IMG/VR virus record: IMGVR_UViG_3300005689_000056
Location: 35,462-99,461 of that record
Length of the DNA stretch: 64,000 bases
DNA from: a virus
Direction: 5' to 3' (one strand)
Shown here piece after piece: positions 14,053 to 27,076 of this stretch. Numbering within the stretch: position 1 is the stretch's first letter; each line of letters begins with the position of its first letter. A model generated the notes under the pieces. The model saw only the letters and a list, made by a program, of their open reading frames with translations, made no database searches and was not told the origin of the DNA. Made by a program: the position numbers and the translations under genes.

Positions 14053-15417
14053 ATGGCAAAGAAAGCAGCATTCAAGATCGGTGACACCGTCAATTTCCTC
14101 GGCTACTCCGAGGAGATGCCTGACAACGAAAAGATCCTCACCGAAGGCAACACCTACACGGTGGTTGAGGTAAACGACGCAGAGGAACTGGTCAGCGTCG
14201 AGATGGCGAACCCGGAATTCAACCCGAAGAAGGCCGAAAGCGACAAGAACCCGAAGACCCTGATTGTCGATGTCTTCCTCAACGAAGTCGAGCTTGCCGA
14301 CGGTGAGGAAGAAGAGGCCCCGCCGCCGAAGAAGGCTGCTTCCAAGACCGCCGCCAAGGGCAAGGCCAAGGGCAAGGCTGTCGCTGAGGAAGAAGAGGAA
14401 GAAGAGGAAGAGGAAGCCGACGAGGAAGAGGAAGAAGAAGAGGAAGAAGCCCCGCCGCCGAAGAAGACCGCCGCCAAGGGCAAGGCCGCTGCCAAGGAAG
14501 AAACCAAGGCCAAGACTCCGGCGAAGAAAACTGCCGCGAAGGCTCCTGCCAAGGCTGACGCCAAGACGAAGGCTCCCGCCAAGTCGAAGGCCAAGGACGA
14601 AGAAGAGGCCGACGAGGACGATCTGCCCGATCTGGAGAACGAAGACGAGGAAGTCGCAGCCTTGGTCGAAGAGGCCGAAAACGTCCTCGATCTGGCCGAA
14701 GAACTGATCAATGACAGCGCGGCAATCGACTACAAGCTGGGCGGCGTGCTCTACCATATCCGCAAGGGCAAGTTGCACCACAAGGCCGACAAGCGCTACC
14801 GCGAGGCCGGCGGCTTTGGTCTCTACGTCAAGGAACGCCTGAACGTCGAGTACCGCAAGGCGATGAACCTGATCGAGATCTACGTCAACTTCAACCTCGC
14901 CGGCATCAGCGGTGAGAAGGTGGCCGAGATCGGCTGGACCAAGGCAAGCAAGATCGCCTCGCTGATGAGCCAGAAGCTCAAGGGCGGCGCAGAGGTCGAT
15001 GACCTTGGCGAACTCGGCGAAGAACTGGTCAAGGTCGCCGAGAATTCGTCGGTCAGCGATCTGGTCGATACGATCAAGGAAGATTACGCAGTTGCCGGCG
15101 CCAGCAAGGGCGAAAAGGTCAAGCGTATTACCTTCCGGTTCCGCCTGATCGAGAACGCCGGGGCGGCAGTCACCGAGGTACTGGAGGCTCAGGCGAAGCT
15201 GATGGGGGCGAAAGACTTGTCGGATGCTTTCGAACACATCGTGATGGAATGGGCCGTCGAGCATATGGACACCCCGCCCGAGATCAAGGTGCCGGCCGAG
15301 GGCAAGACGGCAGGCAAGTCGGCAGGCAAGTCGGCAGGTAAGGCAGCATCTGCCTCCACCGCCAAGGGCAAGACGGCAGGCAAGACCACCGCCCGCCGTG
15401 CCCGTACCGAAGAGTAA
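14053..15417 (+). CDS. Acidic and Lys/Ala-rich protein, likely abundant
   Basis: Strong codon bias, upstream TTGCAG-16-TACTAT, own terminator, poly-E and histone-like KKTAAK blocks. Confidence 0.85.
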   Translation: MAKKAAFKIGDTVNFLGYSEEMPDNEKILTEGNTYTVVEVNDAEELVSVEMANPEFNPKKAESDKNPKTLIVDVFLNEVELADGEEEEAPPPKKAASKTAAKGKAKGKAVAEEEEEEEEEEADEEEEEEEEEAPPPKKTAAKGKAAAKEETKAKTPAKKTAAKAPAKADAKTKAPAKSKAKDEEEADEDDLPDLENEDEEVAALVEEAENVLDLAEELINDSAAIDYKLGGVLYHIRKGKLHHKADKRYREAGGFGLYVKERLNVEYRKAMNLIEIYVNFNLAGISGEKVAEIGWTKASKIASLMSQKLKGGAEVDDLGELGEELVKVAENSSVSDLVDTIKEDYAVAGASKGEKVKRITFRFRLIENAGAAVTEVLEAQAKLMGAKDLSDAFEHIVMEWAVEHMDTPPEIKVPAEGKTAGKSAGKSAGKAASASTAKGKTAGKTTARRARTEE

Positions 15418-18704: not shown

Positions 18705-19454
18705 ATGGCTGACAGGGAAAATGGAGAGACTGTAGGTCGTCGCATCTCGCGTCGGCGTTCAGGCTTTGCGTTCTCGGGGGCTTCTGTCTCTGACTCCACG
18801 CAGCAGCAAGGCGGCAATATCAATGACGGTGTGGAGAGGATGGTCAATACCCCGCCATCGTCTTTACCGCCGCCTGAGCCACCACAGACAATCGCGGGGA
18901 CGCCGTCTGAGGACTTCAACCCGCAGGGGCGTCTGGCGCAGGTGCGCCGCCGTTCTACCACCTACGAACGAGAGTACCGGCTGAATCTACTACACCGCCT
19001 CATGATGCGTGGGGTACCGCTCGATGAGATAGCAAACCAGCTTGGTATCTCTGTGTCTCAGGTATATCGTGATCGTGACGAGTTGAAGGAGCGCCATCGC
19101 GCATCGTCTCGCAGTCTGGATATCGACGAGATCATCGGAGACAGCAAGGGGTATTACGAGGAAGCTGGTGCTATGGCTATGCGCGCCGCCTCCAAGAACG
19201 ACCTACCCTACGCAATGCGTCTTGCGGCTGTACGTACAGCGTTAGCCGCCAAGAATGACATGCACCGTTTCTTCCAGACAGCAGGTGTCTATGACGTGTT
19301 GCGTTTTCGCAAGGCGCAGGACGGTAACGGTACGTCCGATGTTCGTCGCCTCATGGAGAATACTGAGCGCCTTCTGTCCGGCGGTCTGGGTGACCTCAGC
19401 GGTGCGGTCAACGACGCTATCGATTCTGGCGATCAGGAGAATCTTGACCTATGA
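18705..19454 (+). CDS. Terminase small subunit (putative)
   Basis: HTH LDEIANQLGISVSQVYRD; stop overlaps TerL start. Confidence 0.7.
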   Translation: MADRENGETVGRRISRRRSGFAFSGASVSDSTQQQGGNINDGVERMVNTPPSSLPPPEPPQTIAGTPSEDFNPQGRLAQVRRRSTTYEREYRLNLLHRLMMRGVPLDEIANQLGISVSQVYRDRDELKERHRASSRSLDIDEIIGDSKGYYEEAGAMAMRAASKNDLPYAMRLAAVRTALAAKNDMHRFFQTAGVYDVLRFRKAQDGNGTSDVRRLMENTERLLSGGLGDLSGAVNDAIDSGDQENLDL

Positions 19455-22336
19455 CTGCCACACACACCCGCCGCGTAGGGAGACGACGGACCCCGGGTGC
19501 CGCGCCGGGGGTTAGCGAGCAGGCTCGCGCCATGGTTCAAGGGGCGTGGGAGGAGGCTGAACGTTGCGAGAATAAGCTGTTCGGTGAGATGTACGCCACC
19601 GCGTTAGAGCGCAAGGTGTATTACAACGATACGGTGCTATTCGACTTCATGAAGCACCTCACGCACGCTCCGGTAGGCATAGAAGAGTTTCTGTCGGGGT
19701 CGGAGTTTCTGGGGGCTACTGACATATCGTTGTGGCCCGAAGTACGCGCAGCCATCGTTGATATTAACAAGTACTGGTGGAAAGGTCAGGTAGGAGGGGC
19801 CAAGCATGAGGCTCTTCTGATGGGCTCGTGTGTAGACGCGCTAACCGAGTTTTTAACCCCGAACGGCTGGAAGTATATTTCCGATTTTGAGGAAGGTGAT
19901 CTTGTCGGTCAATACTCGGTAGACGGTACTCTAGAGTTTGTGACACCGCAGGCGTACATCCGCCGCCGCCACCGAATGTTTTACCACTTCGCACCTCGGG
20001 GCGGTCTGGATATGATGTTAACTCCGGGGCATCGCGTTATCTACCGGAACAGGAACACCGGGGAAATCTGCGAGATGTCCGCAGAGGACGTGGCCGAGAA
20101 CCACAATAGAACTGCTACCGGGTTCACAGGTAAGTTCCTATCTACCTTTACCCCTACGGGGCGGGTAGGGATTGATCTATCCGACGAACAGATCCGTGTG
20201 ATGGTTATGGTTCATGCCGATGGCTCCTTTGATACAAGGGATGACTCCAGTTGGTGTAATGTGATCGTAAAAAAGCCGCGGAAAATTCGCAGGGCTAGGC
20301 GTATCCTTCAGGAGGCGGGTATTGCGTTTACTGAAGTACCGCACAACGGAGACTACCGCCGCATCCGTTTTTACGCGCCGCAACGGAACAAGACATACGA
20401 GGGTTGGTGGGGTTGCACACAGGACCAGCTCCGTATTGTTACCGACGAGGTAATGCACTGGGATGGCTCCGCGAGGCACCAACAGTTCTACACTGCGAAG
20501 AAAGAGGAAGCTGATTTCATCCAGTACGCCTATCTCGCTACAGGGGTACGGGCTACCATGCAGTGGCAAGATCGCGGGGGAAATCGGTCTGTCGAGTATA
20601 GGGTGAAGCGTTGTCGTTCCGCTGAATACACCATGTCCGCTTCGCCTAAAGGGCCTGAAGCACAGCTTGTTGAAGCCAGTGATGGGTATTGCTACTGCTT
20701 CACACTGCCTACGGGTATGTGGTTGGCGAGGCGCAACGGTAGTGTATACGTCACCGGGAACACAGGTAGCGGAAAAACGGAAATATCGAAGATTACCCAG
20801 CTATACCACCTTTACCTGTTGTCCTGCTTGGACAACCCGCAAGGCTACTACGGCCTGCCGAAAGCGACCTCTATTGTGTTCGCTATCATGGCCGCTAAGC
20901 CGCACGTGACGAAGAAGGTTATCTACGACCCTCTGCGCCACATGATTGAGCACATCCCGTATTTTCAGAAGCACCTACGACCGAGCAAGCTGGTTGAGTC
21001 CGAGATGATCTTTGAGGAGAAGAACATCCGTGTAGTGCCTGCGGGTGTGGACGCCGACTCGATCCTAGGTGAAGCAGTACTTTCGGGGATCATTGACGAA
21101 ATCAACTTCATGAACGTTGTGCTACGTTCTAAGAAGGCAGAGGTAACCACAGGCCGCGCTGGGGTCTACGATCAGGCCCAGACAATACACAGTGCAATGA
21201 CCCGCCGTATCAAGGGTCGTTTCACCAAGCCCGGACCCAAGATAGGGATACTCTGTACGTCATCGTCAACCCGCTATAAAGGGGACTTTACCGACAAGCG
21301 TAAGGCTCAGGCTCTGCAGCACGACGAGCAAGGTATCTACATCTACGATAGGCCGCAATACGAGGTAAAACCTCAAGAAAATTTCTGTGGGCAAAAGTTT
21401 AGGCTGCTTGTCGGTAACGACATGATCAACGATGTGCGTATCCTGAAGGACGGGGACGCCGTACCGCCAGAGGCTCGCGTTCTAGACATCCCCATCGAGT
21501 ATGAGACGGAGTTCCAGAGAGACCCGCATTCCGCCCTACGAGACATCTGCGGTATATCCACCTCGGCTATTTCCCCCTTCATTACCCGTCGTTTCAAGAT
21601 CTACGAGGCTGTGTCTGCCGGGGAGGAGGAAGGTATCCAGTCGTTCCTCAACAAGGACAACGTTATTCTAGGTGTGGATGGGATGCCGGTCGTGAAGTAC
21701 AGCCATTACTGTACCGACCCCTCACGTCCGCGCTATGTGCACGTTGACTTGTCGAAGACCGGGGACAGTTGTGGTATCGCCATGCTGAGATACGATGGCC
21801 TCACCTCCGTTACACGCAGTAATGGGGCTATCGAGAAGCTACCTATCGCTACCATTGAGATGGCGTGCTCAATACAGCCTGACTCCAATAATGAAATAGA
21901 TTTTGCGGAGGTTCGTACATGGATACGGCAGCTACGTGATGTATACGGGTACCCGATCAGGGCGGTAACATACGACGGTATCTTTAGTATCGAGTCCGTA
22001 CAGCAGTGGCGCAAGATAGGTATGCGCACTGGTAATATTTCGGTAGACAGAACGTCCGCACCGTACAAAAACCTGCGTGACGCCTATAACGATAACCGCA
22101 TACGGCAGTACCATCAGGAGGTACTGATCCGCGAGCTTTTTGATTTGGAGTACGATGACGATAAGGACAAAGTCGATCACCCGGTGAATGGCAGTAAGGA
22201 TGTGGCGGATGCAGTGGCCGGCGCCTACTACTCGATGCTGACCAAGCGCAGTACTTGGGTGTCCGAGTCAGGTAACGAGGTAATAGGTAATGGCCGTGCG
22301 GAATTTGGTGAACGTTTCGAGGGGAGTAGGCGATGA
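19451..22336 (+). CDS. Terminase large subunit, intein-containing
   Basis: Walker A GS/TGSGKT split by an insertion, IIDEINF Walker B, HVDLS..DSCG and KDVADA nuclease motifs. Confidence 0.92.
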   Translation: MTATHTRRVGRRRTPGAAPGVSEQARAMVQGAWEEAERCENKLFGEMYATALERKVYYNDTVLFDFMKHLTHAPVGIEEFLSGSEFLGATDISLWPEVRAAIVDINKYWWKGQVGGAKHEALLMGSCVDALTEFLTPNGWKYISDFEEGDLVGQYSVDGTLEFVTPQAYIRRRHRMFYHFAPRGGLDMMLTPGHRVIYRNRNTGEICEMSAEDVAENHNRTATGFTGKFLSTFTPTGRVGIDLSDEQIRVMVMVHADGSFDTRDDSSWCNVIVKKPRKIRRARRILQEAGIAFTEVPHNGDYRRIRFYAPQRNKTYEGWWGCTQDQLRIVTDEVMHWDGSARHQQFYTAKKEEADFIQYAYLATGVRATMQWQDRGGNRSVEYRVKRCRSAEYTMSASPKGPEAQLVEASDGYCYCFTLPTGMWLARRNGSVYVTGNTGSGKTEISKITQLYHLYLLSCLDNPQGYYGLPKATSIVFAIMAAKPHVTKKVIYDPLRHMIEHIPYFQKHLRPSKLVESEMIFEEKNIRVVPAGVDADSILGEAVLSGIIDEINFMNVVLRSKKAEVTTGRAGVYDQAQTIHSAMTRRIKGRFTKPGPKIGILCTSSSTRYKGDFTDKRKAQALQHDEQGIYIYDRPQYEVKPQENFCGQKFRLLVGNDMINDVRILKDGDAVPPEARVLDIPIEYETEFQRDPHSALRDICGISTSAISPFITRRFKIYEAVSAGEEEGIQSFLNKDNVILGVDGMPVVKYSHYCTDPSRPRYVHVDLSKTGDSCGIAMLRYDGLTSVTRSNGAIEKLPIATIEMACSIQPDSNNEIDFAEVRTWIRQLRDVYGYPIRAVTYDGIFSIESVQQWRKIGMRTGNISVDRTSAPYKNLRDAYNDNRIRQYHQEVLIRELFDLEYDDDKDKVDHPVNGSKDVADAVAGAYYSMLTKRSTWVSESGNEVIGNGRAEFGERFEGSRR
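19829..20761 (+). mobile_element. Intein (311 aa) with LAGLIDADG-like endonuclease region
   Basis: Begins CVDALTEFLTPNGW, has TPGH block B, HADGS and HWDGS motifs, ends RRNGSVYVTGN before Thr. Confidence 0.9.
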
Positions 22337-23963: not shown

Positions 23964-24013
23964 AATTCTGTACTGGCACAGTATCGCCCCTACTACTGCC
24001 TGTGTTAGTGTGT

Positions 24014-24042
24014 TTGACAAAGAATCGTAACTGGGTGATAAT
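24014..24042 (+). promoter_or_regulatory. Sigma70-type promoter
   Basis: TTGACA-17 bp-GATAAT; shares TTGACAAAGAA with the 5587 promoter. Confidence 0.75.
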
Positions 24043-24048
24043 CTGCGA

Positions 24049-24600
24049 ACTCTCTGAGTGCCAAGCGCTGTACTGTCTGCAGATCGGTGGCGCTGGACCG
24101 GTAGTGCGGCTCTTCTGGGTTGCTGCAGGTAACGTGGGCGATGTAGATACGCGCACACGCACATCGTAAGTATCCGCTATGTGGATCGGCCACACAGTGC
24201 GATTGCGGGTAAAGTACGGTCATAGAGAAACACGAACGAGGGGGGACTATATGAACGTTGCGGCACGTATGGGCGGACTGGTAATCCGCGTATGCTTGCC
24301 GTTCTCCATGGGGGTAGCAGCCGCGCTTGCCGTTTGCGGGGCCTACGTGAGTACGGCGTACATTGATGTCGGATACAGTACGCCACCGGGCGGTGCGCCC
24401 GCCAGAATCTCACGGATTGCGACAACCCCCAGTGTGCCGAGAAAAGTGCCGAAGGCACCGCATCTGGAGTACGGCTAGATGGTGGGGCTCTGCTACCGAC
24501 AAAGCCCCCTAAATAGCAGATAGAGACCTGAAGGAAGGGGCCGTGTGGTTTGCGACCCCACCAAAGAGACCAGCGAATAACGCACGCTGTACGTTATTCG
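24049..24600 (+). ncRNA. Candidate ~550-nt structured RNA
   Basis: Follows a promoter, has many nested inverted repeats and only a weak ORF. Confidence 0.4.
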
Positions 24601-24634
24601 GTGTTTTCTAGGTGTAATAGTGAGAGGAGGTAGC

Positions 24635-24919
24635 ATGGGTTACTACATCCAAGGGCCATTGTCTGGAAAGGGAGCGCACCTTGTGCGCGAGTACGGTGCC
24701 ACGGCTTGCAGCGAGAAGGATGCACGGGCTGCGCTCGATTCCGAGGACATGGTGCCGGTGTGCGTCGTAGACAACGGTATGTTCGACGCGGCGGCACTGG
24801 CCTACGACAAGCAAGAGTTTGATGTGTTTGCCGGTGATACTTCTGGTCGCCCGAAGCGGTGGTATATCATGTCTCGGGCGCGGGCTTACGAACTTTCTGG
24901 GTACAAGGTGAAGAAATGA
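24635..24919 (+). CDS. Hypothetical protein
   Basis: AGGAGG RBS; stop overlaps next start. Confidence 0.75.
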   Translation: MGYYIQGPLSGKGAHLVREYGATACSEKDARAALDSEDMVPVCVVDNGMFDAAALAYDKQEFDVFAGDTSGRPKRWYIMSRARAYELSGYKVKK

Positions 24920-25428
24920 AGATCATCGAAGGGCTGAAGAAGCTCAAAGAACTGAAGATCAAGGCCGACGATCTCGCGGTGCGTATCCGCAATCATTGCG
25001 CGGACCTGTCGCACGAAACACCGCGCTACACAGATCAGGCGGCACAGGTGCAATCATGGATCGACGCACGGCGAGATATCGTGAAAGAGATCCTGCGCCT
25101 GCGTATCGCCATCCAGCGCACGAACCTTCTGGTACGCGTGGTTGTCGAGACAGAGGACGGCGTATCGGTGGAGAAGACCATCGCCGAGTGGATTCACCGC
25201 CGCAAGGACTTGGCTGCGATGGAGATGGAGTCGTACGCCGTGCTTACCGACCGGGGGCTGAAAGAGGGCCACCTGCCGCAGTCGAGCGGCGTACCGCTGG
25301 AAGTGAAGATCCGCCGGTATTTCTCGCAGCAGCACCGTGATGAGCGGTATTCTGCTCTGAAGGCCGAACCACTCCGCATCGACTCAGCACTGGAGGTTGC
25401 TAACGCAATCAATGATCTGGTAGAGTAG
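24916..25428 (+). CDS. Coiled-coil protein resembling the DIP1984-like family
   Basis: MKIIEGLK..IQRTN..TIAEW..RR..IDSALEVAN pattern; family recalled from memory, not searched. Confidence 0.6.
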   Translation: MKIIEGLKKLKELKIKADDLAVRIRNHCADLSHETPRYTDQAAQVQSWIDARRDIVKEILRLRIAIQRTNLLVRVVVETEDGVSVEKTIAEWIHRRKDLAAMEMESYAVLTDRGLKEGHLPQSSGVPLEVKIRRYFSQQHRDERYSALKAEPLRIDSALEVANAINDLVE

Positions 25429-25440
25429 TAACCGCTTAAC

Positions 25441-25718
25441 GTTGCAGCGGACGTGCGGAGACAAAATCGTTAATCAGGCCTAAGCTAAGCCGGGTAAGTG
25501 CTAAGCATCTGACTCCTAATCAGACCAAGGCAAGTCCCTCAATGGGCAACCTCAAGTGTCATGGTTTAAGGCTAAAGGTAGTAAGGTTTAGTCAGATTAA
25601 GGCGGTAAGTGTTATGTGCGTAAGGATGACGCCTGTAGGTTAGGCAAAATCCCTGTACGAAGTTAGGCGCCCTGAGCCTTACGAATCTTCGAGGGCTTCC
25701 CGTATGGGTTGCTGCAAC
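25441..25718 (+). ncRNA. Candidate ~280-nt structured RNA with YAAG repeats
   Basis: GTTGCAGC/GCTGCAAC ends pair; 9 TAAG and 3 CAAG; anticodon-like hairpin at 25508-25524; no + strand ORF. Confidence 0.6.
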
Positions 25719-25951
25719 CACCAACACCGCAGGGGGCGCAATACCCCCTGCACTTTCACAGTCTATCGGCCAGCTTCGTGCCTGCGCACGGCGCCCGTCC
25801 GGCTCCTCCCTCCCCTCACCGGACGAGCGCTGCCTGATACCCCCCGGCACGAAGCTGCCCCATAGACTGTCAACCGCATACAGGCGGCACAGCGTATAAT
25901 CGCAATCGATTTCAACTCTCCAAAAAGGGGGAATATCTGTGAGATATAGCA

Positions 25952-26068
25952 ATGCGCTTCTTACTAGACATCATTACCGTGATATGCGGCCTGATCGTAC
26001 TGATTGCACTCGCTTCGGCGTCCCCGGTGTCATCATTTCTCGGTTGGATGGTTAGCTTGCTGAAATGA
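25952..26068 (+). CDS. 38-aa hydrophobic peptide
   Basis: MRFLLDIITVICGLIVLIALASAS..; stop overlaps ATG 26065. Confidence 0.45.
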   Translation: MRFLLDIITVICGLIVLIALASASPVSSFLGWMVSLLK

Positions 26069-26403
26069 TTTTCGATAAGGAACAATGGCCGCTATCTGTG
26101 TCGTATGGCGGGCCTGATCTGTACGCGGGGGTAGTAAGCCCTTTTGTGTCGGTATGTAATGGTGACACCGGTAAGGTTCTCTACCGTGTGCGGGTGGTAC
26201 CGCCTACGGCGTTCTTTCCTTTTGCTGCGCAGCTTGTAGGCCTGACCGCCTTGGCTGCGGAGGGCGGTAAAGTTAAGTTCTTTCTTGAGGACTGGGGGGA
26301 CGTGTGGTCTTTCGGATTCTCTGCCCGAGGGGACATGTACGACCTATGGCCTTATAAAGAGCTACCGGTGTGGGCCGAGAAACGATTCAAGGTGACGAAA
26401 TGA
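26065..26403 (+). CDS. Hypothetical protein
   Basis: ATGA coupling on both sides. Confidence 0.6.
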   Translation: MIFDKEQWPLSVSYGGPDLYAGVVSPFVSVCNGDTGKVLYRVRVVPPTAFFPFAAQLVGLTALAAEGGKVKFFLEDWGDVWSFGFSARGDMYDLWPYKELPVWAEKRFKVTK

Positions 26404-26732
26404 GACCTGAGCCTGCGAAGTTTACGAAAGACAACCCGTGCACGAAAAAACACATATGGAACTGCTTCGCCGGGCCGCAGGGGTTGCGACCAGTAAGTGT
26501 AGTAGCCGCACAGGCACAGATAGGCGTGTATGTACCACGGGTGATGGAGCGAAATGCTCGCCTAGTATGTAAGACTGTCAAAGGTACTGACTACTACGAG
26601 CTTACGCCGGAGGGTGAAGAGTGGCTTACGGCAGGTATCCGTAGCTACCTGAAGAACCACCCCTCGGAGGCCGGGGAGGTGACGTACCCGCCAGATACCT
26701 TACCTGCTAGAGTAAGACGAGTACGCCGCTGA
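26400..26732 (+). CDS. Winged-helix-like protein with C-terminal RVRRVRR
   Basis: YYELTPEGEEWL wing motif. Confidence 0.6.
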   Translation: MRPEPAKFTKDNPCTKKHIWNCFAGPQGLRPVSVVAAQAQIGVYVPRVMERNARLVCKTVKGTDYYELTPEGEEWLTAGIRSYLKNHPSEAGEVTYPPDTLPARVRRVRR

Positions 26733-26794
26733 GGGATCTACCCTCGCTGGGGGTAGTATCATGGTAACCCATACAACGCATATAGGCTCCAGAC

Positions 26795-27076
26795 ATGTAC
26801 CCGAACCTGAGACCAACCGACCTTGTAGCCAAGCTGGCACGGGTCAACCAGAACAGCACTTTGCGAGTTCTGTCCAACACATATTCACCTGACTTCCCTG
26901 TGGATGCGCGCACGCGAACTGCGGTACGCGAGGCGTTGGGGGAGGTAGCTGCTTTTCTGGATATGTCACCAAAAGAGATCTGTGAATTCGGTCCAGATGC
27001 TGCTACGCGGGCAACGCCTGAACAAGTAGTAGCATGCCATACCGCGTATGTTGATCTTATTGACTCTCGCGGATAA
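26795..27076 (+). CDS. Hypothetical protein
   Basis: Packed + strand ORF. Confidence 0.5.
   Translation: MYPNLRPTDLVAKLARVNQNSTLRVLSNTYSPDFPVDARTRTAVREALGEVAAFLDMSPKEICEFGPDAATRATPEQVVACHTAYVDLIDSRG

What the first reader, a model, noticed from the sequence alone, without database searches (positions are those of the whole stretch)
24916..25718. Coiled-coil gene followed by a closed ~280-nt RNA with 12 YAAG repeats and an anticodon-like arm
Seen: 12 nt after the stop codon, GTTGCAGC (25441) pairs with GCTGCAAC (25711), extendable to about 20 bp with G-U pairs and bulges. Inside, TAAG occurs at 25481, 25486, 25495, 25502, 25567, 25582, 25598, 25606 and 25621, and CAAG at 25526, 25531 and 25553. 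TCTGA-CTCCTAA-TCAGA (25508-25524) is a 5-bp stem with a 7-nt loop shaped like an anticodon arm (C, U, CCU, A, A; Arg-AGG), but has no T-arm or acceptor stem. ATCTGACT (25507) can instead pair with AGTCAGAT (25590), giving an alternative fold. Established analogy: the ring protein TRAP wraps RNA carrying spaced trinucleotide repeats. Inference: an oligomeric protein-RNA pair, possibly a tRNA decoy against anticodon nucleases or a type III TA-like unit.
Basis: partly seen in the sequence, partly recalled or inferred. Interest (0 to 1): 0.8.

Follow-up and report, generated by a model that had tools for sequence, protein, structure and literature searches.

The report
Phage heptad-repeat RNA with partner protein
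Right after a small helical-protein gene of unknown function, this sludge phage encodes a real, knotted 278-base non-coding RNA with a track of AAG units spaced 7-8 bases apart and a tRNA anticodon-arm look-alike; the same gene-plus-RNA pair recurs in many uncultured phages, is in no catalogue, and is probably an undescribed protein-RNA particle.

Summary
Observation confirmed. All coordinates are exact. Twelve YAAG in 278 nt exceeds every one of 2000 dinucleotide shuffles.

The 278-nt element (25441-25718) belongs to a conserved structured RNA family that matches no Rfam model. In 48 aligned relatives the closing stems P1/P2, a 3' stem and a pseudoknot all covary strongly.

A covariance model of the 3' module hits 82 of about 99 loci carrying a homologue of the upstream gene. 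Every hit is on the gene's strand, usually downstream, and just upstream in 11 loci. Twelve of 12 intact RNAs found by DNA pattern alone lie beside such a gene. No other neighbouring gene is conserved.

The gene (24916-25428) is a distant DIP1984/DUF6847 relative (fold of PDB 3KDQ, function unknown).

At the site of the window's anticodon-like arm, relatives carry whole tRNAs, circularly permuted tRNA-like domains, or bare anticodon arms. A quarter of the gene leaders carry AAG-N4/5-AAG, which hints that the protein reads the track.

Best reading: a two-part RNP displaying a tRNA mimic. Protein-RNA binding and function are inferred, not shown. Type III TA is rejected. This scan has already found sister DIP1984+RNA pairs on other DNA.

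The parts
24916..25428 (+). Gene for a 170-aa helical protein (P0001), a distant DIP1984/DUF6847 relative. Its start overlaps the stop of the upstream ORF (ATGA).
   Evidence: Translation. NF038048 E 4e-6, below the curated cut-off. Homologues carry PF20935. AlphaFold model pLDDT 93. Best fold match is 3KDQ: Foldseek E 4.5e-4, VIA Z 12.4. Single copy in the phage.
24905..24913 (+). AAG-N3-AAG (cAAGgtgAAGaa) just before the start codon. It may be a two-unit copy of the track motif, although the spacing here is 6, not 7.
   Evidence: Sequence. Family statistics for leaders: spacing peak at 7; 19 of 77 leaders against 3.8% of control leaders.
25441..25718 (+). The whole non-coding RNA, 278 nt, closed by P1 and P2.
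   Evidence: Aligns along its full length with 47 relatives. Covariation. CM R1 hit at 25622-25716, 42 bits, E 2e-8, the only hit in the window.
25441..25450 (+). P1 5' strand. Pairs with 25709-25718 (8 Watson-Crick pairs plus 2 G-U).
   Evidence: The family P1 columns covary (helix 1).
25452..25458 (+). P2 5' strand, CGUGCGG. Pairs with CCGUAUG at 25700-25706.
   Evidence: The family P2 columns covary.
25459..25467 (+). Conserved A-rich joining strand, AGACAAAAU (family consensus AGAUAAAAA).
   Evidence: Alignment A2.
25467..25470 (+). Pseudoknot strand UCGU. Pairs with ACGA at 25681-25684 in the loop of the 3' stem (family: CUGG with CCAG).
   Evidence: Family covariation (pair 77-622: UA 20, CG 11, AU 4, UG 4). 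The window pairing was read from the sequence because MAFFT misaligns the window in these columns.
25508..25524 (+). Anticodon-arm mimic: 5-bp stem with 7-nt loop CUCCUAA (U33-like, CCU, AA). It occupies the variable 'module' site.
   Evidence: The stem columns covary (helix 2). Relatives carry a tRNA, a permuted tRNA-like domain or a bare anticodon arm at this site.
25553..25625 (+). Heptad track of nine (G/U)(Y)AAG(G) units arranged 5 + 4, split by a 16-nt spacer.
   Evidence: for the window. for the family: AAG-AAG spacing of 7 (127 times) and 8 (91 times), with a harmonic at 14-16.
25631..25645 (+). Hairpin GCCU-GUAGGUU-AGGC preceding the conserved (G)AAAAUCC (family consensus GAAUGUCC).
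   Evidence: Alignments A2 and A3.
25651..25695 (+). 3' stem. CCCU 25651-54 pairs with AGGG 25692-95, and CGAAG 25658-62 pairs with CUUCG 25687-91. The loop holds the pseudoknot partner.
   Evidence: Family covariation, helix 3. The window register was read from the sequence and is shifted by one relative to the alignment.
25694..25700 (+). Invariant GGCUUCC motif.
   Evidence: Identical in all 48 sequences.
25729..25751 (+). GC-rich hairpin 10 nt after the RNA. It could be a transcript end, but it has no U-run.
   Evidence: pair I7. The terminator scan does not call it.
24014..24042 (+). Candidate sigma-70-type promoter (TTGACA-17-GATAAT) that could drive the operon ending in the RNA.
   Evidence: This is a consensus match only.

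Best explanation
The gene and the RNA form a self-contained two-part module that moves between phage genomes.

The RNA (25441-25718) folds into a closed, knotted scaffold:
- Terminal helices P1 and P2 bring the two ends together.
- An A-rich strand and a 4-bp pseudoknot lock the 5' part onto the loop of a conserved 3' stem.
- Between them lie a variable 'module' site and a single-stranded track of nine AAG units spaced 7-8 nt apart.

I infer that several copies of the DUF6847-type protein bind this track, one per unit. I also infer that surplus protein binds a two-unit copy of the motif at its own ribosome-binding site.

The particle would hold out the module. In this phage the module is an anticodon arm with loop CUCCUAA. 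In relatives it is a whole tRNA or a permuted tRNA-like domain. The module would act as a mimic that engages a host tRNA-recognising factor. The most likely role is a decoy or sponge for a tRNA-cutting defence enzyme.

Shown here: the RNA family and its fold, the gene-RNA coupling, the periodic track, and the modular tRNA-like site.

Inferred: that the protein binds the track (about 0.55), and that the function is tRNA mimicry or decoy (about 0.25-0.3).
For: **The RNA is real**
- 48 aligned elements are 87.7% paired.
- They show 305 double-change cells against 88.8 +/- 10 in shuffles and at most 94 in slid controls.
- The pseudoknot shows 58 against 25 double changes, reached by 0 of 500 shuffles.

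**The RNA is coupled to the gene**
- The 3'-module CM hits 82 of about 99 homologue loci at E < 1e-3, always on the gene's strand.
- In 11 loci the order is reversed.
- All 12 intact modules found by a protein-independent DNA pattern lie beside the gene.
- No other gene is conserved within 2-3 kb.

**The track is periodic**
- Window spacings are 7, 7, 7, 8, 16, 8, 7, 8.
- The family peaks at spacings of 7 and 8.
- The track is purine-rich and was left unpaired by RNAalifold.

- In the genes' own leaders, AAG-AAG spacing peaks at 7.
- 19 of 77 leaders have AAG-N4/5-AAG against 3.8% of control leaders; shuffles give 4.2 +/- 2.

**The module site is tRNA-related**
- 18-20 of 48 elements hold whole tRNAs.
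- Five hold permuted tRNA-like domains.
- Several hold bare arms with loops of the form YU-NNN-AA.
- In the three closest pairs the module diverges faster than the scaffold: 0.99 vs 0.88, 0.86 vs 0.62 and 0.86 vs 0.81.
- The phage has no tRNA gene of its own, so the arm is not part of a tRNA cassette.
Against: - No experiment or structure shows that the protein binds RNA.
- The protein is near neutral (family median pI 7.9).
- Its only fold relative, 3KDQ, has no known function.
- The window's own leader has AAG spacing of 6, not 7.
- Three quarters of the leaders lack the motif, and AAGG overlaps ordinary Shine-Dalgarno sequences.
- Permuted tRNA-like modules have no anticodon loop, so a pure anticodon-nuclease decoy cannot explain all members.
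- Embedded tRNAs could simply be working tRNA genes.
- Anticodons are very diverse.
- No transcript ends are known. The only possible RNA-run cover is one 180-nt contig from a run that is probably DNA.
Confidence: 0.5

Rival explanations
1. The RNA acts on its own. It would be a large structured phage RNA, as GOLLD and ROOL are thought to be: a self-assembling or catalytic scaffold. The adjacent protein would be only a chaperone, a stabiliser or a co-expressed but separate function. A host factor, or the RNA itself, would read the AAG track.
For: The fold is complex, knotted and highly conserved, with invariant motifs GGCUUCC and AGAUAAAAA. The protein is not basic. tRNAs nested in or beside large phage RNAs are known for GOLLD (my knowledge, from Weinberg et al. 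2009).
Against: The two-way coupling to one small gene is strict, even when the order is swapped. The track motif recurs in that gene's leader. Neither feature is expected for an RNA-only machine. There is no Rfam similarity to GOLLD or ROOL.
Confidence: 0.2
2. The element is a tRNA expression or processing platform. The scaffold would exist to express, protect or mature an embedded phage tRNA. Members without a tRNA, including this window, would be decayed remnants.
For: About 40% of members hold a full tRNA at one fixed site. One near-identical pair differs in the anticodon.
Against: Most members (28 of 48) have no whole tRNA yet keep the full scaffold with covariation. Bare arms keep canonical 7-nt loops. 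Permuted tRNA-like domains can never be released as tRNAs. This phage has no tRNA at all.
Confidence: 0.12
3. The element is a cis-acting untranslated region of the DUF6847 mRNA. It would act as a stability element, a terminator or a translational control element and would have no role in trans.
For: It starts 12 nt after the stop codon and is probably co-transcribed with the gene.
Against: In 11 loci it lies upstream of the gene rather than downstream. A 280-440-nt closed knotted fold with a swappable tRNA module is far more than a UTR needs. Similar motifs in the leader suggest a trans-acting reader.
Confidence: 0.08
4. The pair is a type III toxin-antitoxin-like unit, with an RNA antitoxin neutralising a toxic protein.
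For: A small protein gene is tightly linked to a repeat-bearing RNA.
Against: No tandem direct repeats are detected. The units are 7-8 nt long, not about 36 nt. The RNA is one closed fold. The protein is a helical DIP1984-like fold, not a ToxN-type endoribonuclease. There is no PADLOC hit. The RNA usually lies downstream of the gene rather than upstream.
Confidence: 0.03

Closest known systems
DIP1984 family / Pfam DUF6847 (PF20935; NCBIfam NF038048; crystal structure 3KDQ, Corynebacterium diphtheriae; sometimes annotated 'septicolysin')
   Same: About 150-170 aa. The same helical hairpin plus small beta elements. 3KDQ is the only fold match that stands out (Foldseek E 4.5e-4, VIA Z 12.4). There are weak profile matches, and close homologues carry PF20935.
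   Different: P0001 scores far below the curated cut-offs (27 against 70 bits; no Pfam hit). It represents a phage subfamily known only from metagenomes: tblastn with three members found nothing in 50,697 cultured-phage records. The family has no known function, so membership explains nothing.
Ro60 (Rsr) with bacterial Y RNAs such as YrlA
   Same: The protein gene is adjacent to a non-coding RNA. The RNA is closed by a long terminal stem and carries a tRNA-like module. In five relatives the module has the same permuted topology, attached through the anticodon stem with a closed acceptor end.
   Different: The protein is not a Ro60/TROVE ring. There is no Rfam Y-RNA match. Y RNAs have no heptad AAG track or GGCUUCC core. 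The window itself has only an anticodon arm.
TRAP-trp leader, HutP-hut mRNA, CsrA-CsrB/RsmZ (oligomeric proteins reading periodic short RNA motifs)
   Same: An array of about 9-11 short purine motifs at regular spacing in single-stranded RNA. A copy of the motif may lie at a ribosome-binding site. HutP sites also have a 7-nt period (my knowledge).
   Different: The motif is AAG(G), not (G/U)AG triplets at 5-6 nt or GGA in loops. The protein is helical, not a TRAP beta-sandwich or a CsrA fold. The RNA is a closed trans-type scaffold, not an mRNA leader.
GOLLD and ROOL large phage-associated RNAs
   Same: They are large, ornate, conserved RNAs in phages and prophages, often next to or enclosing tRNAs, and their function is unknown.
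   Different: There is no sequence or structure match in Rfam. This RNA is half their size or less, and those RNAs have no dedicated partner gene.
RAGATH-27 motif
   Same: According to those notes it is an orphan phage-associated RNA motif near DIP1984-type genes.
   Different: It was not detected here. No Rfam family reached even E <= 10 (apart from one noise hit) in the window region, and only tRNA reached gathering score in 20 related loci.

Membership tests
DIP1984 / DUF6847 protein family | Profile score at or above the curated cut-off (NF038048: 70 bits; PF20935: 27 bits) | tested here: not met
   P0001 scores 27 bits on NF038048 (E 4e-6) and has no Pfam hit even at E 10. Close homologues score 26.6-28.2 bits on PF20935 and 38-42 bits on NF038048.
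DIP1984 / DUF6847 protein family | Fold of the solved member 3KDQ | tested here: met
   The model has pLDDT 93. 3KDQ is the top hit by Foldseek (E 4.5e-4, prob 1.0, TM 0.55-0.61) and by VIA-align (Z 12.4 over 149 residues; next best Z 9, local helical hairpins only).
The uncatalogued 'heptad-repeat RNA' family defined here (GGCUUCC subtype) | P1/P2 closing stems, A-rich joiner, pseudoknot into the 3'-stem loop, and invariant GGCUUCC | tested here: met
   The window aligns over its full length. All helices can be drawn in the window. CM R1 scores 42 bits, E 2e-8. Note that the window was one of the 48 sequences used to build the model.
The uncatalogued 'heptad-repeat RNA' family defined here (GGCUUCC subtype) | Track of AAG units at 7-8 nt spacing, arranged 5 + 4 | tested here: met
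The uncatalogued 'heptad-repeat RNA' family defined here (GGCUUCC subtype) | Adjacent DUF6847-type gene on the same strand | tested here: met
Any Rfam 15 family (including GOLLD, ROOL, Y RNA-like, tmRNA, RAGATH motifs) | Covariance-model match | tested here: not met
   In the window 24000-27000 at E <= 10 the only hit is noise (PVT1_2, 17 bits). In 20 related loci at gathering score only tRNA is found.
tRNA gene | Cloverleaf with acceptor, D and T arms | tested here: not met
   ARAGORN finds 0 genes in the window and 0 in the whole phage. Only the anticodon arm is present.
Type III toxin-antitoxin (ToxIN-like) | RNA antitoxin made of tandem direct repeats of about 34-36 nt upstream of the toxin gene | tested here: not met
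   TRF finds no array. The units are 7-8 nt long. The RNA is one closed fold and usually lies downstream of the gene.
Type III toxin-antitoxin (ToxIN-like) | ToxN/AbiQ-type endoribonuclease toxin | tested here: not met
   The protein has a helical DIP1984-like fold and no PADLOC family.
TRAP-type attenuation system | About 11 (G/U)AG triplets separated by 2-3 nt, bound by a beta-sandwich 11-mer | tested here: not met
   The spacing is 7-8 nt and the core is AAG. The protein is predominantly helical.
Ro60-Y RNA RNP | Ro60/TROVE protein gene beside the RNA | tested here: not met
   The only conserved neighbour is the DUF6847 gene. No TROVE family appears among the commonest neighbour families.
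Ro60-Y RNA RNP | tRNA-like module attached through its anticodon stem | tested here: inconclusive
   This topology is present in relatives L010, L012, L045, L073 and L082. The window has only a bare anticodon arm.

The most novel reading that the evidence does not exclude
A widespread, mobile phage ribonucleoprotein works as follows. A DUF6847 protein polymerises on a heptad AAG track of a knotted scaffold RNA and autoregulates through the same motif at its own start site. The scaffold displays interchangeable tRNA parts: an anticodon arm, a whole tRNA, or a permuted 'elbow' domain. These parts act as bait that neutralises or senses host tRNA-targeting immunity. This would be a programmable RNA decoy platform.
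Probability: 0.25. Interest if true: 0.9.

Novelty: categorically new. Interest (0 to 1): 0.8.

Why it matters
The RNA class is conserved and strongly covarying. It is absent from Rfam and from the searched literature: 'DUF6847' occurs in no searched paper, and 'DIP1984' in one, an unrelated Acinetobacter baumannii genomics study. It is tied to a protein family of about 860 clusters at 50% identity whose function nobody knows.

If the pair is an RNP it would give DIP1984/DUF6847 its first function. It would also add a new way for proteins to read RNA, through a 7-nt periodic track. And it would reveal a modular system for presenting tRNA mimics at a time when tRNA-cutting defences and phage counter-measures are an active field.

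It is directly testable: one small gene and one RNA of about 280 nt.

Tried and rejected
- **Rfam.** Nothing in the window region at E <= 10 except a noise hit. Only tRNAs in 20 related loci.
- **Pfam, PHROGs and PADLOC on P0001.** No hit.
- **PDB sequence-profile search.** Only a non-significant hit, 1wmi_B at E 0.16.
- **Cultured phages.** blastn of the region and tblastn of three family proteins against 50,697 cultured-phage records found no match. I could therefore not check the earlier notes' claim that T5 relatives carry the pair.
- **Expression.** No RNA holder is listed. Two runs labelled RNA-Seq (flagged probably DNA) gave only short contigs: 25447-25624 in X15, and 25187-25345 and 25559-25593 in X14. 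This cannot show a transcript.
- **Alternative pairing** of 25507-14 with 25590-97. It is real as sequence but is at chance level and unsupported by relatives.
- **MFE fold alone.** z = -1.98 is weak. The case for structure rests on covariation, not on energy.
- **Anti-Shine-Dalgarno sponge.** Rejected by reasoning: the units are AAG(G), not GGAGG.
- **CsrA sponge.** Rejected by reasoning: there is no GGA in hairpin loops.
- **tmRNA.** ARAGORN finds none.
- **Distant protein relatives without a CM hit** (L007, L041, L053, L055, L068, L079, L084, L085, L099-L105). Runs of four or more AAG (or [A/T]AG in L055) at 7-8 nt spacing lie beside the gene in only about 6 of 13 loci with enough flank, close to the null maximum. 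This is inconclusive.
- **The 19-nt DNA pattern.** It also produced about 15 chance matches without a CM hit.
Full report
**Setting.** The window is the last 64 kb of a 99.5-kb IMG/VR virus record from bioreactor sludge, with essentially all genes on the + strand. The finding lies after the terminase region, in a run of small genes of unknown function.

**Observation.**
- The ORF runs from ATG 24916 to TAG 25426-28 and encodes 170 aa.
- Twelve nt later, GTTGCAGC (25441) pairs perfectly with GCTGCAAC (25711). Two G-U pairs extend this helix to 10 bp. After a one-base bulge a 7-bp helix follows (25452-58 with 25700-06), giving 17 bp in the MFE fold.
- YAAG occurs at exactly the 12 positions given. 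The window average is 2.5 per 278 nt, dinucleotide shuffles give 4.6 +/- 1.9, and none of 2000 shuffles reaches 12.
- The 5-bp/7-nt arm TCTGA-CTCCTAA-TCAGA is at 25508-25524.
- ARAGORN finds no tRNA in the window or in the whole phage.
- The competing 8-bp pairing of 25507 with 25590 exists, but it is at chance level.

**The protein.** P0001 has no Pfam, PHROG or PADLOC match.
- It hits NCBIfam DIP1984_fam weakly (E 4e-6, 27 bits against a cut-off of 70). Its homologues carry PF20935/DUF6847 at borderline scores.
- An AlphaFold model built on 24 homologues is confident (pLDDT 93). It shows an N-terminal helical hairpin, two small beta hairpins and two further long helices.
- The only structural match that stands out is 3KDQ, the DIP1984 crystal structure of unknown function (Foldseek E 4.5e-4; VIA Z 12.4). 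All other matches are generic helical hairpins.
- An exhaustive profile search finds 858 clusters at 50% identity with E <= 1e-3. Nearly all are stand-alone proteins of about 170 aa.
- The family is near neutral (median pI 7.9).
- No searched paper mentions DUF6847. 'DIP1984' occurs once, in an unrelated Acinetobacter baumannii genomics paper, and 'septicolysin' appears as an annotation label.

**The RNA is real and belongs to a family.** Homologous genes in uncultured phage contigs are followed by a look-alike element. I aligned 48 non-identical full-length elements of 254-440 nt, including the window.
- RNAalifold predicted 24 pairs, and 21 of them show compensatory changes.
- For a structure naming P1, P2, the arm stem and the 3' stem, 87.7% of cells pair. 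There are 305 cells with changes on both sides, against 88.8 +/- 10 in shuffles and at most 94 when partners are slid. No shuffle out of 500 reaches the observed values.
- A pseudoknot also covaries. The four bases after the A-rich joiner (consensus CUGG) pair with CCAG in the loop of the 3' stem. It shows 58 against 25 double changes, reached by 0 of 500 shuffles; one pair reads UA 20, CG 11, AU 4, UG 4, GC 1.
- GGCUUCC is identical in all 48 sequences, and AGAUAAAAA is nearly so.
- The window has every part:
  - P1: 25441-50 with 25709-18.
  - P2: 25452-58 with 25700-06.
  - Joiner: AGACAAAAU.
  - Pseudoknot: UCGU 25467-70 with ACGA 25681-84.
  - 3' stem: 25651-62 with 25687-95.
  - GGCUUCC: 25694-700.
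- The window belongs to a divergent subgroup together with L014, L015, L020 and L054.
- Most relatives have a small H-type pseudoknot in the 5' domain (stem 1 covaries). In the window, 25483-25505 is instead predicted to form a near-palindromic hairpin built from the four 5' TAAGC copies. This is a prediction only.
- No Rfam family matches.

**Coupling to the gene.**
- A covariance model of the 98-position 3' module hits 82 of about 99 homologue loci at E < 1e-3. The loci come from viral contigs and from MAG contigs with unrelated taxonomic labels, and every hit is on the gene's strand.
- In 11 loci the RNA ends 15-110 nt upstream of the gene instead of following it. Adjacency survives rearrangement.
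- The model finds one copy in the window, and the gene is single-copy.
- As a reverse test I scanned the viral collection for a 19-nt DNA pattern from the RNA alone. Of 28 matches, 12 are intact modules by the CM, and all 12 lie beside a DUF6847 gene. In one of these the gene lies beyond the fetched stretch but is known from L022. About 15 matches are chance, and one is a 57-nt relic.
- Clustering all ORFs within 2-3 kb in 100 loci gives no other conserved gene.
- Neighbouring genes are varied: HNH endonucleases are the most frequent, followed by replication and recombination genes.
- The pair therefore behaves as a self-contained, probably mobile, two-part module.

**The track.** In the window, nine units with core A[A/T]G lie at 25553, 60, 67, 74, 82 and at 25598, 606, 613, 621. 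Across the family, AAG-AAG spacing is 7 (127 times) or 8 (91 times), with a harmonic at 14-16. The unit consensus is (G/U)(Y)AAG(G)N(U), and the layout is 5 units, a 16-nt spacer, then 4 units. The track is purine-rich and left unpaired in the consensus fold. TRF sees no tandem repeat, so only the short core recurs.

I examined the 40 nt before the start codon of 77 non-identical family genes.
- Consecutive AAG are most often 7 nt apart: 20 pairs, against 8 for the next most frequent spacing.
- 19 of 77 leaders have AAG-N4/5-AAG in the last 30 nt. This compares with 3.8% of 263 control leaders in the same loci and with 4.2 +/- 2 in shuffles (maximum 12).
- This fits the classic pattern of an RNA-binding protein that represses its own translation through a copy of its binding site.
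- The evidence is indirect, it overlaps Shine-Dalgarno-like sequence, and the window's own leader has spacing 6.

**The module site.** Between the 5' domain and the track, family members carry one of three things.
- Whole tRNAs: 18-20 of 48, with many different anticodons.
- Circularly permuted tRNA-like domains. These run: anticodon-stem 3' strand, variable arm, T arm, acceptor 3' strand, a loop that often contains CCA, acceptor 5' strand, D arm, anticodon-stem 5' strand. They occur in L010, L012, L045, L073 and L082.
- Bare anticodon arms whose 7-nt loops keep U33 and A37-A38. Examples are the window (CUCCUAA), L013 (CUGCCAA), L018 (AUGUGAA), L027 (AUGCUAA) and L042 (CUGAUAA).

The arm stem covaries. 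In the three closest pairs of elements the module has diverged more than the scaffold: 0.99 vs 0.88, 0.86 vs 0.62 and 0.86 vs 0.81.

**Mechanism.** My best reading (0.5 overall) is an RNP.
- The knotted scaffold closes its ends.
- Several copies of the protein sit on the heptad track (about 0.55).
- The particle presents a tRNA mimic to a host tRNA-recognising factor, most plausibly as a decoy for tRNA-cutting defences (0.25-0.3).

The permuted modules lack an anticodon loop, so the target cannot be an anticodon nuclease in every member.

The rivals are:
- an RNA-only machine (0.2);
- a tRNA expression platform (0.12);
- a cis-acting UTR (0.08);
- a type III TA unit (0.03).

**Comparison with known systems.**
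- The closest working analogies are Ro60 with Y RNAs and oligomeric readers of periodic motifs.
  - Ro60 with Y RNAs shares an adjacent gene, a stem-closed RNA and a tRNA-like module of the same permuted topology.
  - The periodic-motif readers are TRAP, HutP and CsrA/CsrB.
- Membership in each fails on the defining features, as listed in the table.
- The protein is a distant DIP1984/DUF6847 relative by fold, not by curated score.

**Novelty and caveats.**
- Notes of this same scan report sister DIP1984-plus-RNA pairs in other genomes: Bacillus phages, T4-like phages, and reportedly T5 relatives. So the kind has been seen before by this scan, though not in catalogues or papers I could find.
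- I checked here the points I reuse: coupling, knot, periodic track, tRNA-like modules and the leader motif.
- I could not check the T5 or RNA-repair-gene claims. RAGATH-27 is not detectable in this subtype.
- No experiment, transcript map or oligomer prediction is available.

Noticed in passing
window 25729-25873: A GC hairpin (GCAGGGGG/CCCCCTGC, 25729-25751) lies directly after the RNA. It is followed by a 119-nt imperfect palindrome with outer arms of 28 nt (89% complementary, 25755-82 and 25846-73) and inner arms at 25791-802 and 25819-30. Both lie upstream of a TATAAT near 25897 and a small ORF at 25953-26064. There is no Rfam match and no other copy in the phage.
   Followed up: partly
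window 19451-22336: A 961-aa ORF combines a PhoH-like ATPase region (phrog_32482, E 9e-44, residues 125-452) with terminase large-subunit matches (residues about 440-940).
   Followed up: no
L037:1598-1974 and L049:2339-2721: Two elements have 99% identical scaffolds but differ in the anticodon loop of the embedded tRNA: CUUAAGG versus CUUCAGG. ARAGORN calls the latter anticodon UCA, i.e. opal-suppressor-like.
   Followed up: partly
L109:4757-4813 (- strand): Only the last ~57 nt of the RNA's 3' module (AAGUUA...GGCUUCCUG...) are present, directly after an unrelated ORF and with no DUF6847 gene nearby. This is apparently a relic.
   Followed up: partly
L023, L046, L048, L063, L064, L066, L067, L072, L080, L095, L098: In these 11 loci the RNA lies immediately upstream of the DUF6847 gene instead of downstream, on the same strand.
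   Followed up: partly
L010:2513-2854: One element carries both a bare anticodon arm (UGCGA-CUGUUAA-UCGCA) and, right after it, a permuted tRNA-like elbow domain.
   Followed up: no
window 14250-15100: This is the only other YAAG-dense zone of the window. It lies inside a long ORF (Lys-rich protein) and is unrelated to the RNA.
   Followed up: no
window 24014-24042: A near-consensus promoter-like site (TTGACA-17-GATAAT, 11 of 12 matches) lies about 900 nt upstream of the DUF6847 gene. It may drive the small-gene operon that ends with the RNA.
   Followed up: no
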